Positions 9,001 to 12,000 of a stretch of 45,459 nt of DNA are shown here, in pieces. The stretch comes from a virus (Duplodnaviria > Heunggongvirae > Uroviricota > Caudoviricetes). The stretch is from IMG/VR virus record IMGVR_UViG_2651869692_000003. One strand, written 5' to 3'. A program made the position numbers. Every line of letters starts with the position of its first letter. The stretch's first letter is position 1.

Positions 9001-12000
9001 TGGAATCACCAATAAATCTGGCTATTACTGCTTTGTTCTGTGCAGCACGAAGCATCTGGTGATTGATGGCTATTTCATTGCGCATAACGCCTCCAGTTGT
9101 TTCTTTGCTGCTCTGATTAATTGTTTAACTCGGCGTGATAATTCAGATTCGTGCGGGTAGAAAGCGGACATGACGCCGCTACCCGCGAGCTGAAAGTGCA
9201 TCATGGGTAACTCCTTATATTTGATTGCATAACGAAAACGCCTCGAGTGAAGCGTTATTGGTATGCGGTAAAGCCGCACTCAGGCGGCCTTGATAGTCAT
9301 ATCATCTGAATCAAATATTCCTGATGTATCGATATCGGTAATTCTTATTCCTTCACTACCATCCATTGGAGGCCATCCTTCCTGACCATTTCCATCATCC
9401 CAGTCGAACTCACAAACAACACCATATGCATTTAAGTCTTTCGAAATTGCTATAAGCAGAGCATGTTGCGCCAGCATGATTAATACAGCATTTAATACAG
9501 AGCCGTGTTTATTGAGTCGGTATTCAGAGTCTGACCAGAAATTATTAATCTGGTGAAGTTTTTCCTCTGTCATTACGTCATGGTCGATTTCAATTTCTAT
9601 TGATGCTTTCCAGTCGTAATCAATGATGTATTTTTTGATGTTTGACATCTATTCATATCCTCATAGATAAAAAATCGCCCTCACATTAGAGGGCAAAGAA
9701 GATTTCCAATAATCAGAACAAGTCGGCTCCTGTTTAGTTACGAGCGACATTGCTCCGTGTATTCACTCGTTGGAATGAATACACAGTGCTTATTCGTACT
9801 AATAAAACACCCAATTTTCTGTTTCTTGGTTGTGTCCAAAGTTATATTCAATATCTGGTGTTGATGTATCAATATTCTTCATCCCATCAACAAGAGTTGA
9901 TACAACAGCCAAATCTTGTTTGATTCTCATCAAATGGTATTTCTTTCGGCGCAATAAACTTTCAATGGCAAGTTTCTTCGTCGGGAATGCAAAAGATCTT
10001 TCTGCATTTTTTGCTACTTTCTTAATTGCATATCTATTTCTCCTTTGTTTCCATTCCTGTAACCACTGATTTGGTGCTGGTTTAAAATTAACAATCCAAT
10101 GCGCAGGAACCAACCATGCATAATGCTCTGTCTGATGAAAAGCTATATATTGAAGTGCGAATATTTTGATCCCATCTTCTTCAACTGTCGCCTGGAATCT
10201 CCAGAAAACAGGCATTCCATCATGTTCAGTTTCTGATTCAGGAAAAGGTACGCTCCATGATTTTGTCATATCTCACCTCAAATAAGTGGTTTGCTGCCTA
10301 ATTTCATTTTCTGGCGCCCAACACAAGTCATCTCGCCGTCAGTTGTTTTGGTTTCCGGTAGCCTGCCGCGTAAATGGCTACGTTTGGCAGGCAAATACTT
10401 CCACTGCATTCATCTGCCTTCTTGCAGCGAAGGCTTCCGAGTGATGCTGCTTTGTCTGCTCTGACGCAACCAGAGAGCTTTAGCGCAATTTTTCGCGCCA
10501 GTCGCTGTTCTTGCATTGCCTGCTCACGTTGAGCCTGTCTGCGTGCTCTGCGGCGATTTCTGGCGTTATCGTCAGCCAGATATGTAATGACTACTGCCAT
10601 GTTGACCTCCGATGATTGACTTTGGCGGTGACGCGCCGGGTGCTTATCTTCCGGTTGCCGTCGTGCAGCTGCACTTCTCGTCACCCCAAAGCCAACTACT
10701 CTTTGGTTCCCGCATTTCGGCGGGACAATCCCATCAATGTTAAAGAGCCTGCCAATCTGTTCCGTTTGGCTACCAGCGACCTGCTGATGACTTAAATTTA
10801 AGATTTCTTCAATTGTTGGTCAAGGGTGTTTTTGAAGAAAACTTAAATTTTTATTGCGAGGTTTAAGTTTTGCTTTGATTTTTAAAGGAAAGAAAAAAAG
10901 GGGCGAATGCCCCTTATGGAAGGTTTGCTATTTTTGCATCGACAACTACACCGATGATTTTGCAGTTCCCGTTGATCTCAATCATCGGATATTGTGGGTT
11001 AAGTGGTTTTAGAAACCTTCTACCAGCATCAATAACTAACTTCTTGAAAGTTGCCTCGTTTTCTCCTTCGAGCTTTGCCACTACCAGCTTCCCATTACGA
11101 GGTTCTACTTCAGGATCGACTAGTATTATCATCCCTTCCGGGATGCTAAGACCGGCTGGAGCCGTCATCGAATCACCCTTTACGTCCAGCCAAAACGAAT
11201 CTTCTGAACAATCTACGGTTGTATCGTACCAGTTATCTATTGCACGCTTATGATATGGCTCTACAGCTTCCATCCAACATCCTGCGCTTACCCAACTAAT
11301 TAGAGGATACGAACCTCTTGGATCATGCCTGCTGTGATAGGCAATGTTTGAAAGACTATCTTCTCCTTTCAACAAGTAATCAGGGGAGCACTGTAAAGCC
11401 TTGGCTAAAGCCAATAGGTTTTCGCCATTGGGCTCAGTTTCAGAACGCTCCCATTGGGAAATAGCAACATTAGACACGCCAACCATCTTGCCAAGGGCAG
11501 CCTGCCTAATCTTAAGTTCTTTTCTGCGAGCGCGAATACGCTCACCCATCAGTTGTGTATTCATAGTTAAGACATCTTAAATAAACTTGACTTAAGATTC
11601 CTTTGATAGATAATTTAAGTGTTCTTTAATTTCGGAGCGAGTCTATGTACAAGAAAGATGTTATCGACCACTTCGGAACCCAGCGTGCGGTAGCTAAAGC
11701 GTTAGGCATTAGCGATGCAGCAGTCTCTCAGTGGAAGGAAGTCATCCCAGAGAAAGACGCCTATCGACTGGAAGTCGTTACAGCTGGCGCCCTGAAGTAT
11801 CAAGAAAGTGCTTATCGCAAAGCGGCATAAGCAAATTGCTCTTTAACAGTCATGGTCCTTATTCCCGCCGAAATGCGGGAATACAACGCGCATCAGTTGG
11901 TGCGTATAACTTCTTATTTGTTAAGGAAATACTTACATATGCAACTTACAAGTACTCGCAAGAAAGCGAATGCAATCACAAGCAACATCCTGAATCGAAT

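What the first reader, a model, noticed from the sequence alone, without database searches (positions are those of the whole stretch)
10328..11900. P22-type immunity core grafted into a lambda backbone, with identical boxB hairpins at nutL and nutR
N, c2, cro and c1 are P22-like while the flanking replication and early-left genes are lambda-like. The nutL and nutR boxB hairpins are the same 16-nt sequence (CCCGCCGAAATGCGGG). Nothing is encoded between c2 and N, so there is no rex-like exclusion locus here and exclusion functions, if any, sit elsewhere.
Basis: partly seen in the sequence, partly recalled or inferred. Interest (0 to 1): 0.35.

Follow-up and report, generated by a model that had tools for sequence, protein, structure and literature searches.

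The report
Ordinary mosaic lambdoid immunity region
This is the normal early-control region of a mosaic lambda-like E. coli prophage: a phage-21/P22-type repressor cassette flanked by an HK620-type N antiterminator and its two matching RNA hairpins, an arrangement already present in sequenced phages and therefore ordinary.

Summary
The two identical 16-nt hairpins are real: 10709-10724 (-) and 11864-11879 (+), with 0.05 matches expected by chance. Each follows a boxA, downstream of pL and pR respectively, so they are the boxB elements of nutL and nutR. c2, cro and c1 are homologues of the P22 genes (93%, 95% and 89% aa), and nothing is encoded between c2 and N.

N is not P22-like: it is 36% identical to gp24 and 95.6% identical to HK620 N. 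The boxB is the HK620 one, already annotated as "putative" nut sites in that phage's 2001 GenBank record, and not P22's GCGCUGACAAAGCGC. The repressor is closest to coliphage 21 cI (98.6%). Only 32% of the window aligns to lambda.

N is a three-module mosaic: an HK620-type arginine-rich motif, a middle identical to phage 21, and a P22/Stx-phage-type C-terminus. In 80 viral contigs with the same repressor, the N motif, nutL and nutR always match (38 phage-21-type, 36 HK620-type, 0 mixed). The same nut pair brackets at least six repressor types.

Verdict: textbook lambdoid modular exchange, already known, low interest. Side notes: the O gene carries a 7-bp frameshift, and an unknown 156-aa gene lies left of N.

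The parts
9675..9696 (-). Intrinsic-terminator-like hairpin plus T run at the end of ORF156, in the pL operon. It is a candidate target of N antitermination and lies in the lambda/phi21-like ea10-proximal segment.
   Evidence: 8-bp stem, T tract; 98% lambda/phi21 homology over 9228-9789. Function inferred.
9799..10269 (-). ORF156, the first gene after N in the pL operon. Function unknown. AT-rich (36-38% GC).
   Evidence: phrog_1636, unknown function. No Pfam, NCBIfam, PADLOC or PDB match. 100% identical in many Stx phages. GC.
10278..10337 (-). Untranslated remnant of a phi21/CUS-3-type N 3' end (reads GEMTCVGRQKMKLGSKPLI* in another frame), left behind where the C-terminal module was replaced.
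   Evidence: 95% identity to phi21 over 10280-10319.
10328..10600 (-). N antiterminator, 90 aa. Residues 1-33 are the HK620-type arginine-rich motif (NARNRRRARRQAQ). Residues 34-62 are the shared middle, identical to phi21 N. Residues 63-90 are the HK620/Stx-phage/P22-type C-terminus (CLPNVAIYAAGYRKPKQLTAR).
   Evidence: Pfam N_peptide, E 2.7e-15; phrog_271; 95.6% identical to HK620 N; per-segment identities; RefSeq calls the same 273-nt CDS.
10605..10610 (-). Shine-Dalgarno sequence (GGAGGT) 4 nt upstream of the N ATG.
   Evidence: Read from the sequence; conserved in N7, JEP4, CUS-3 and HK620.
10707..10725 (-). nutL boxB hairpin: UCCCGC-CGAAAU-GCGGGA, followed by one more A that completes the shared 19-nt core.
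   Evidence: Identical to the nutL annotated in HK620.
10739..10749 (-). nutL boxA (GGCTCTTTAAC).
   Evidence: The same sequence is annotated as boxA-L in phage 21 and as part of nutL in HK620.
10795..10823 (-). pL promoter (TTGACC, 17 nt, TAAATT).
   Evidence: Aligns with pL of phage 21 and P22.
10796..10878 (.). OL1 (10796-10813), OL2 (10831-10848) and OL3 (10861-10878), operators of the P22/phi21 type.
   Evidence: Alignment to the annotated phage 21 operators. Coordinates read.
10898..10915 (-). Intrinsic terminator at the end of c2.
   Evidence: A terminator is annotated at the equivalent place in phage 21.
10914..11564 (-). c2/cI repressor, 216 aa, with HTH_3 and Peptidase_S24 domains. 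Immunity type phi21/P22.
   Evidence: Pfam. 98.6% identical to phi21 cI and 93.1% to P22 c2. An internal junction lies near 11200-11240.
11565..11630 (.). OR3 (11565-11582), OR2 (11590-11607) and OR1 (11613-11630), with pR (TTGACT, 16 nt, GATAAT) at 11587-11614.
   Evidence: OR1 is identical in the window, phi21, P22 and N7; OR3 is identical to phi21.
11645..11830 (+). cro, 61 aa, of the P22_Cro family.
   Evidence: Pfam P22_Cro, E 8.7e-28. 96.7% identical to phi21 and 95.1% to P22.
11837..11847 (+). nutR boxA (TGCTCTTTAAC). Its 5' edge is the junction between the immunity cassette and the nut module.
11860..11883 (+). nutR boxB hairpin. The shared 19-nt core is 11863-11881, with a stem that can extend to 9 bp.
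   Evidence: 44 of 46 bases match the nutR annotated in HK620.
11939..12217 (+). c1/cII-type activator, 92 aa. A TTGC-N6-TTGC motif at 11972-11985 (-) is in the expected pRE position.
   Evidence: Pfam Phage_CII, E 2.4e-44. 89.1% identical to both P22 c1 and HK620 cII, 24% to phi21 cII. Across the whole window the motif is not above chance.
12252..13144 (+). Lambda-type O gene with the ori iterons, split by a 7-bp deletion between 12703 and 12704. It marks the right flank and is not part of the N/nut system.

Best explanation
The locus is the early regulatory centre of a mosaic lambdoid E. coli prophage. It is built from three modules that can be exchanged independently.

(1) An immunity cassette (OL-c2-OR-cro, about 10796-11836) of the phage-21/P22 type. 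The repressor shuts off pL and pR.

(2) An HK620-type N antitermination set that straddles the cassette: the N gene plus nutL on the left, and nutR on the right. After derepression, pL and pR transcripts carry boxA followed by the boxB hairpin. The N-terminal arginine-rich motif of N binds boxB, and with the host Nus factors on boxA it makes RNA polymerase resistant to the terminators downstream.

(3) A P22/HK620-type c1 (cII) gene, followed by lambda-type O-P-ren.

Because one N protein must read both hairpins, the arginine-rich motif, nutL boxB and nutR boxB are kept as a matched triad, while the cassette between them and the C-terminal (polymerase-binding) module of N are swapped freely. 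Exchange happens at short conserved linkers: the first ~40 nt of the pL transcript, boxA of nutR, and the middle of N.

Shown here: the anatomy, the homologies, the module boundaries and the co-occurrence statistics. Inferred from lambda, P22 and phage 21 biology: the RNA binding, the Nus dependence, antitermination itself and the immunity specificity.
For: - Hairpins: exactly two copies, facing outward, each behind a boxA downstream of pL or pR.
- N: Pfam N_peptide and phrog_271. It is 95.6-97.8% identical over its full length to the N of HK620, HK630, HK140, mEp213 and JEP4.
- nut sites: the window's nutL is identical, and its nutR 44/46 identical, to the features annotated 'putative' nutL and nutR in HK620 record AF335538.
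- Module map from BLAST and 40-nt identity profiles: 10320-10760 is 95-100% HK620/JEP4 apart from the first 40-nt bin at the left junction (78%); 10760-10799 is >=90% in all references; 10800-11839 is the immunity cassette; from 11840 it is HK620/N7 again; from 12227 it is lambda.
- Reference phages and relatives: the motif type matches the boxB type at both nut sites in all 12 compared. All four combinations of two motif types with two C-terminal types exist (HK620, CUS-3, HK629, phi21).
- Survey from the hairpin: of 88 viral contigs with an outward-facing pair of the 19-nt core, 82 have an N gene with the HK620-type motif just outside one copy. At least six repressor types lie between the pair.
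- Survey from the repressor: of 80 contigs with c2 >=99% identical, 38 carry full phi21-type triads, 36 full HK620-type triads and 0 mixed.
- Precedent: P22 and L gp24 share the N-terminal 75 aa and the boxB sites, have unrelated C-termini, and are interchangeable (PMC8022706). Typing N specificity by the N-terminus is routine (PMC2629481).
Against: - No experiment on this N/boxB pair was found. HK620's own record calls its nut sites 'putative'.
- The hairpin scores are not remarkable against shuffles in their wider sequence context (z -0.27 and -1.47). The case therefore rests on position and comparative evidence, not on folding energy.
- The surveys started from exact matches or from near-identical repressors. 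They cannot show compensatory change within boxB, and their counts are inflated by shared ancestry.
- The prophage has a frameshifted O gene, so the N system here may no longer be under selection in this particular copy.
Confidence: 0.9

Rival explanations
1. One reading: a complete P22 immunity core (N/gene 24, both nut sites, c2, cro, c1) was grafted into a lambda genome, as in the laboratory lambda-immP22 hybrids.
For: c2, cro and c1 are 89-95% identical to the P22 proteins. P22 aligns over 10732-12259 at 82% nt. The last 28 residues of N match gp24 at 17/28. O-P-ren are 97.7% lambda.
Against: N is 36% identical to gp24, with 9 of 33 residues identical across the N-terminal segment that holds the arginine-rich motif. 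The boxB differs from both P22 boxB sequences. The P22 DNA match stops before nutL. Phage 21, N7, JEP4 and HK620 each match their modules far better than P22 does. Only 32% of the window aligns to lambda.
Confidence: 0.04
2. The two hairpins are not protein-binding nut elements. They are chance inverted repeats or terminator stems that happen to be identical.
For: In context, the folding energies are not exceptional against shuffles. No Rfam family matches.
Against: No T tract follows either hairpin. Both sit at a fixed 13-15 nt behind a boxA in the two early transcripts. In 82 of 88 contigs an N gene with the cognate motif lies just outside one copy of the pair, and the 80-contig repressor survey found no mixed triad. 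The 16-mer is expected 0.05 times in the window but occurs twice.
Confidence: 0.02
3. The locus is an inert relic. The prophage cannot replicate, and the N/nut/immunity genes are decaying and no longer function as a system. This is compatible with the best explanation for what the parts are.
For: O carries a 7-bp frameshifting deletion inside ori. The same lesion is annotated 'frameshifted' in an O157:H7 prophage. A remnant of an older N 3' end lies after the stop codon.
Against: N, c2, cro and c1 are all intact ORFs. The 661 bp spanning N, nutL and OL are 100% identical in 8 complete genomes, including one whose O gene is intact. The operators and promoters match the functional phage 21 ones. 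The repressor at least must work for the prophage to be kept silent.
Confidence: 0.15

Closest known systems
Coliphage HK620 N / nutL / nutR (GenBank AF335538; also HK630, HK140, JEP4)
   Same: N is 95.6% identical over all 90 aa (97.8% to JEP4). nutL (boxA, spacer, boxB) is identical over 42 nt and nutR over 44 of 46 nt. Same position relative to pL and pR.
   Different: HK620 has a different repressor and cro (38% and 19% aa), plus an extra gene (hkaS) between cI and OL. The genes downstream of N also differ (hkaQ/hkaP there, ORF156 here).
Coliphage 21 immunity region (imm21)
   Same: cI is 98.6% and cro 96.7% identical. OR1 and OR3 are identical and OR2 differs at 1 position. OL, pL and terminator layout is the same. 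Nothing lies between cI and N. The middle of N (residues 34-62) is identical at 29/29.
   Different: Phage 21 has its own N motif (GTAKSRYKARRAELIAERR) and its own boxB hairpins, a lambda-like N C-terminus and an unrelated cII (24%).
Salmonella phage P22 immC region and gene 24
   Same: c2, cro and c1 are homologues at 93, 95 and 89% aa. The recognition-helix region of c2 is identical. The operators are of the same type. The last 28 aa of N resemble gp24 at 17/28. No gene lies between c2 and gene 24.
   Different: N is 36% identical overall. Its arginine-rich motif and both boxB sequences differ. DNA identity is only 75-95% across the cassette and absent over N and nutL. P22 has sieB next to gene 24, and the window does not.
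Lambda N-nut antitermination (the paradigm)
   Same: Same logic: an arginine-rich N-terminal peptide, boxA plus a boxB hairpin in both early transcripts, N as the first gene of the pL operon, and a purine-rich GAAA loop.
   Different: N is 15% identical. The predicted loop is 6 nt (CGAAAU, that is GAAA flanked by C and U) instead of lambda's pentaloop GAAAA/GAAGA. There is no Trp at the position of lambda W18. Lambda has rexAB between cI and pL.
JEP4, CUS-3, N7 and IME10 (sequenced phages with the same combination)
   Same: All combine the HK620-type motif and boxB with the phi21/P22-type c2-cro (96.8% c2). JEP4 also has the same N C-terminus.
   Different: These are P22-like podoviruses (Lederbergvirus) with other replication and late genes. 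CUS-3 and N7 have the lambda/phi21-type N C-terminus. CUS-3 has an insertion of about 207 bp in the N leader.

Membership tests
Lambdoid N/nut processive antitermination system | [quoted passage not shown] | tested here: met
   Pfam N_peptide, E 2.7e-15, above its cut-off; phrog_271. The NARNRRRARRQ motif is at residues 12-22. The gene lies directly downstream of pL and nutL.
Lambdoid N/nut processive antitermination system | nut sites (boxA of the CGCTCTT(T)A type followed by a boxB hairpin) in both the pL and the pR transcripts | tested here: met
   nutL boxA 10739-10749 and boxB 10707-10725; nutR boxA 11837-11847 and boxB 11860-11883.
Lambdoid N/nut processive antitermination system | Cognate pairing of the motif type with the boxB type | tested here: met
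   All 12 reference phages and relatives are concordant. 82 of 88 paired loci carry an N gene with the matching motif. 74 complete triads and 0 mixed among 80 loci with the same repressor. This is comparative evidence only.
Lambdoid N/nut processive antitermination system | N- and Nus-dependent read-through of downstream terminators | not testable with these tools
   A terminator-like site exists downstream at 9675-9696. Whether it works that way needs a reporter assay.
P22 gene 24 / P22 nut specificity class | P22 arginine-rich motif (GNAKTRRHERRRKLAIERD) | tested here: not met
   9 of 33 residues identical in the N-terminal segment; 36% overall.
P22 gene 24 / P22 nut specificity class | P22 boxB (nutL GCGCUGACAAAGCGC, nutR CCGCCGACAACGCGG; GACAA loop) | tested here: not met
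   The window's boxB is CCCGCCGAAAUGCGGG at both sites. It shares only its CCGCCGA...GCGG frame with P22 nutR.
HK620-type N/nut class | N motif MxVVITYLADDNARNRRRARRQAQ, with boxB CCCGCCGAAAUGCGGG at both nut sites | tested here: met
   32 of 33 N-terminal residues match; both boxB copies are identical to HK620's.
imm21 / P22 immC immunity class | Repressor and Cro of this sequence type, with an identical DNA-recognition region | tested here: met
   c2 is 98.6% identical to phi21 and 93.1% to P22. Residues 1-68 differ from P22 at 2 positions, both outside the SNVAISQWERS helix. cro is 95-97% identical.
imm21 / P22 immC immunity class | Three 18-bp operators of the ANTNAAG-N4-CTTNANT type at OL and at OR | tested here: met
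   OR1 is identical to phi21 and P22, OR3 is identical to phi21, and OR2 differs from phi21 at 1 position. OL1 and OL2 fit the pattern. The consensus itself is recalled from Poteete et al. 1980 (the citation was confirmed, its content was not read).
imm21 / P22 immC immunity class | Cross-immunity with phage 21 or lambda imm21 | not testable with these tools
   Needs plating of lambda imm21 and lambda immP22 on a lysogen.
rex-like exclusion locus co-transcribed with the repressor | One or more genes between the repressor gene and OL/pL | tested here: not met
   Only a terminator, the operators, pL and the nutL leader lie in 10601-10913. There is no credible ORF, and RefSeq annotates none.

The most novel reading that the evidence does not exclude
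The HK620-type N motif and boxB pair could be a fourth N-boxB recognition class that nobody has characterised experimentally. Its hairpin would present a true GAAA (GNRA) tetraloop closed by a C-U mismatch (or a CGAAAU hexaloop), not the pentaloop of lambda and P22. It would be read by a motif with no Trp at the position of lambda's stacking residue W18, and it would be orthogonal to the lambda, P22 and phi21 pairs. The complete absence of mixed nutL/nutR types among phages that share 1.1 kb of near-identical immunity DNA would then be direct evidence of selection for that orthogonality.
Probability: 0.35. Interest if true: 0.3.

Novelty: already known. Interest (0 to 1): 0.08.

Why it matters
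It matters little as a discovery. Mosaic exchange of immunity, N/nut and replication modules among lambdoid phages has been textbook knowledge for decades, and this exact combination is already in GenBank (JEP4, CUS-3, N7 and several E. coli chromosomes).

It has modest value in three ways:
- It corrects an annotation-by-eye error. Here 'P22-like' holds for c2, cro and c1 but not for N or the nut sites.
- The survey gives a clean quantitative picture of a functionally linked triad (N motif, nutL, nutR) that is kept together across an exchangeable cassette. There were 0 mixed among 74 complete triads, and at least six repressor types lie between the same nut pair.
- The HK620-type peptide-hairpin pair is common in E. 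coli prophages and seems untested. It could serve as one more orthogonal RNA-tethering pair alongside lambda N-boxB.

Tried and rejected
- Rfam scan of 9000-13000 at E<=1: only chance-level hits.
- PADLOC, Pfam, NCBIfam and PDB sequence searches for ORF156: nothing.
- AlphaFold model of ORF156 from a 20-sequence alignment: mean pLDDT 59.5, pTM 0.44. That is too poor for a fold search, so none was run.
- Literature on ORF156 by its RefSeq accession: no hits.
- Literature on whether phage 21 and P22 share immunity: the library only confirmed that Poteete et al. 1980 exists, through a reference list. The homoimmunity statement therefore rests on my memory plus the operator and HTH identity shown here.
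- My first parse of the viral loci assumed a fixed orientation and gave spurious 'repressor' clusters, and a regex error then found no N motifs. Both were fixed.
- The Pfam call with a wrong O start coordinate failed.
- The GTG-extended 118-aa version of N (10328-10684) was rejected. It has no RBS, and the relatives and RefSeq all start at the ATG with GGAGGT upstream.
- The TTGC-N6-TTGC pRE motif is in the expected place, but 3 matches in the window against 3.75 expected is no evidence by itself.
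Full report
**What is in the sequence**

The 16-mer CCCGCCGAAATGCGGG occurs exactly twice in the window, at 10709-10724 on the minus strand and 11864-11879 on the plus strand. Chance predicts 0.05 matches, and none of 100 shuffles had two. The identity in fact extends to 19 nt (TCCCGCCGAAATGCGGGAA). As RNA, each copy folds into a 5-6 bp G+C stem with a 6-nt loop, CGAAAU; the nutR copy can extend to 9 bp.

Each copy lies 13-15 nt downstream of a boxA-type sequence, GGCTCTTTAAC on the left and TGCTCTTTAAC on the right. Each is also downstream of a promoter that aligns with pL or pR of phages 21 and P22: pL is TTGACC-17-TAAATT at 10823-10795, and pR is TTGACT-16-GATAAT at 11587-11614.

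The genes are:
- N, 10328-10600 (-), 90 aa, Pfam N_peptide
- c2, 10914-11564 (-), 216 aa, HTH_3 plus Peptidase_S24
- cro, 11645-11830 (+), P22_Cro family
- c1, 11939-12217 (+), Phage_CII family

The 313 bp between N and c2 hold the c2 terminator, OL3-OL1, pL, boxA, boxB and the N leader. There is no credible ORF. RefSeq annotates nothing there on a 100%-identical sequence.

The megablast match to P22 starts only at about window 10760 (blastn: 10732), so it excludes N and nutL. The N protein is 36% identical to P22 gp24, 40% to phage 21 N and 15% to lambda N. It is 95.6% identical over its full length to HK620 N, and 95-98% to the N of HK630, HK140, mEp213 and JEP4.

The P22 boxB sequences (nutL GCGCTGACAAAGCGC, nutR CCGCCGACAACGCGG) and the phage 21 ones (CTCAACCTAACCGTTGAG and TCACCTCTAACCGGGTGA) are different hairpins. 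The window's nutL is identical over 42 nt, and its nutR matches at 44 of 46 nt, to the features annotated 'putative' nutL and nutR in the 2001 HK620 GenBank record.

**N is a three-part mosaic**

- Residues 1-33, the arginine-rich motif (M-VVITYLADDNARNRRRARRQAQREQAMQEQR), match HK620 and N7 at 32/33, but P22 at only 9/33 and phage 21 at 6/33.
- Residues 34-62 (LARKIALKLSGCVRADKAASLGSLRCKKA) are identical to phage 21 N at 29/29.
- Residues 63-90 (DECSGSICLPNVAIYAAGYRKPKQLTAR) match HK620 at 26/28 and P22 gp24 at 17/28, and are 87.5% identical to the N C-terminus of many Stx phages.

This last segment is the only 'P22-like' part of N. Directly after the stop codon, in another frame, lies a 60-nt remnant of the alternative lambda/phi21/CUS-3-type C-terminus (GEMTCVGRQKMKLGSKPLI*). 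It is 95% identical to phage 21 DNA and marks an old replacement of the C-terminal module.

**The immunity cassette is of the phage 21/P22 type and closest to coliphage 21**

| Protein | vs phage 21 | vs P22 | vs HK620 |
|---|---|---|---|
| c2 | 98.6% | 93.1% | 38.2% |
| cro | 96.7% | 95.1% | 18.8% |
| c1 | 24% (cII) | 89.1% | 89.1% (cII) |

(All.) OR1 is identical in the window, phage 21, P22 and N7. OR3 is identical to phage 21, and OR2 differs from it at one position. The first 68 residues of c2 differ from P22 at two positions, both outside the SNVAISQWERS helix. I therefore predict the same operator specificity as phage 21 and P22. This is an inference: the classic operator paper by Poteete et al. 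1980 was confirmed to exist, but I did not read it.

A 40-nt identity profile adds finer mosaicism. The c2 5' half, OR and cro are 95-100% phage 21-like. The c2 3' half (10920-11200) is 85-98% N7/JEP4-like and only 72-88% phage 21-like. P22 is 75-95% throughout. The cassette is therefore assembled from modules that circulate in coliphages, and P22 is a more distant relative, not the donor.

**Module boundaries**

- HK620 homology (97%) runs from the N stop codon to 10795. All references are at least 90% identical in 10760-10799, the first bases of the pL transcript, and this stretch is the left junction.
- On the right, phage 21 homology ends at 11860 and HK620 homology begins at 11838, so the junction is boxA itself. 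Across 82 viral loci the sequence upstream of boxA changes with the cro type, while boxA, the spacer and boxB stay constant.
- From 12227 rightward the sequence is 97.7% lambda (O, P, ren).

**The backbone**

Only 32.4% of the window aligns to lambda, 13.1% at 90% identity or better; 9.5% aligns to P22. The lambda-like pieces are ea10, part of the xis-ea8.5 region, O-P-ren, most of nin-Q, and the tail-tip genes at 89%. The recombination genes are a Rad52-family protein plus SSB, and the head and tail genes are mEp460/cdtI-like. It is a typical lambdoid mosaic, not lambda with an insert.

**Comparative test of the mechanism**

Among 12 reference phages and relatives, the motif type always matches the boxB type at both nut sites. 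All four combinations of two motif types with two C-terminal types exist: HK620 and the window, CUS-3, HK629, and phage 21.

Of these, 88 carry an outward-facing pair, and 82 of the 88 have an N gene with the HK620-type motif just outside one copy; four of the remaining six lack enough flanking DNA. The spacing falls into discrete classes, and the largest ORFs between the pair form eight clusters. At least six of these are different repressor types, including the phi21/P22 type (38 loci), the HK620 type (34 loci) and one that I recognise as lambda cI by its sequence. The two N C-terminal types are about equally common with this motif.

In the reciprocal survey, 80 contigs encode a c2 at least 99% identical to the window's. 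They split into 38 complete phage-21-type triads and 36 complete HK620-type triads, with none mixed; the other six are incomplete or variant.

These phages share about 1.1 kb of near-identical DNA between the two nut sites, so a single crossover there would produce mixed nutL/nutR genomes. Their absence fits selection for one N that reads both hairpins. Two caveats apply: the counts are not phylogenetically independent, and the exact-match ascertainment rules out seeing compensatory change within boxB.

**Mechanism**

This is standard lambdoid N antitermination. When c2 is inactivated, pL and pR fire. The nascent RNAs present boxA, which binds NusB/NusE, and boxB, which binds the N motif. The complex, held to RNA polymerase through the middle and C-terminal parts of N, reads through the terminators downstream, for example the terminator-like site at 9675-9696.

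The anatomy and the co-inheritance are shown here. The binding and the antitermination are inferred from lambda, P22 and phage 21. Precedent for C-terminal swaps without a change of specificity is published for P22 versus L gp24 (PMC8022706), and typing N specificity by the N-terminus is routine in phage genomics (PMC2629481).

**Novelty and verdict**

The combination of HK620-type N and nut with phi21/P22-type c2-cro already exists in phages JEP4, CUS-3, N7 and IME10. The 661 bp spanning N, nutL and OL are 100% identical in eight complete E. coli genomes. Having no gene between the repressor and N is the native state of both P22 and phage 21.

The finding is therefore already known and of low interest. 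The only mildly open point is that the HK620-type peptide-hairpin pair, with its GAAA loop flanked by C and U, seems never to have been characterised biochemically.

**Side observations**

- O gene: it has lost one unit of the AAAAGAA tandem repeat in the A-rich part of ori, between 12703 and 12704, which shifts the reading frame. A close relative has an intact O. The same short allele is annotated 'frameshifted' in an O157:H7 prophage. This prophage is probably replication-defective.
- ORF156 (9799-10269, -): it sits where lambda and P22 carry ral and sieB. It is AT-rich and 100% identical in many Stx phages. It is conserved at 55-85% in prophages of other enterobacterial genera, where it also lies in the early-left operon. 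It has no family, defence-system or structure match, and its model is poor. If this prophage has an exclusion function near N, this is the candidate, but nothing here shows that it has one.

Noticed in passing
window 12252-13144 (deletion between 12703 and 12704): The lambda-type O gene lacks one 7-bp unit of the AAAAGAA tandem repeat in the A-rich part of ori, which shifts the reading frame. A near-identical relative has an intact 900-bp O. The same short allele is annotated 'frameshifted' in an O157:H7 prophage with a different immunity region, so this slippage either recurs or spreads. The prophage is probably replication-defective.
   Followed up: yes
window 9799-10269 (-): ORF156 is an AT-rich (36-38% GC) 156-aa gene directly after N, in the slot where lambda and P22 carry ral and sieB. 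It is 100% identical in many Stx phages (the EDL933 Stx phage, vB_EcoP_24B) and 55-85% identical in prophages of Pectobacterium, Cronobacter, Brenneria and Rosenbergiella. It has no Pfam, NCBIfam, PADLOC or PDB match, and the AlphaFold model is poor (pLDDT 59.5). Function unknown; a candidate accessory or exclusion gene.
   Followed up: partly
window 10278-10337 (-): Right after the N stop codon, in another frame, lies a 60-nt remnant encoding GEMTCVGRQKMKLGSKPLI*. This is the C-terminus of phi21/CUS-3-type N, a fossil of the C-terminal module replacement.
   Followed up: yes
window about 11200-11240, inside c2: There is a recombination junction inside the repressor gene. The 5' half (N-terminal domain), OR and cro are 95-100% phi21-like. 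The 3' half (C-terminal domain) is 85-98% N7/JEP4-like and only 72-88% phi21-like.
   Followed up: partly
window 7464-8678 (-): The early-left recombination module is a Rad52/22-family annealing protein (235 aa) plus an SSB (168 aa), not lambda exo-bet-gam. A close relative with the same immunity region (E. coli HCP5S3_I4) carries bet and gam instead.
   Followed up: partly
L012 (phage mEp213, JQ182733), 1316-1648 and 2801-3073: mEp213 is annotated with two N genes in its pL operon: an HK244-like N next to the repressor, and 1.2 kb further on an HK620-type N that is 96.7% identical to the window's.
   Followed up: no
L011 (phage CUS-3, CP000711), 1512-2032: CUS-3 carries an insertion of about 207 bp in the N leader, between nutL and the N start codon. 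The insertion has a second GCTCTT motif followed by a hairpin-like CCCCG...CGGGG sequence.
   Followed up: no
L006 (E. coli HCP5S3_I4), 1555-2783: In the relative with the 100%-identical N, nutL and OL region, an IS2 element is inserted between the ea10-like gene and ORF156. This is the spot where the window has the terminator-like site at 9675-9696.
   Followed up: no
L002 (P22) nutR compared with window 11864-11879: The P22 nutR boxB (CCGCCGACAACGCGG) shares its stem frame (CCGCCGA...GCGG) with the HK620-type boxB (CCCGCCGAAATGCGGG) but has a different loop. This hints that the two boxB types are related.
   Followed up: no
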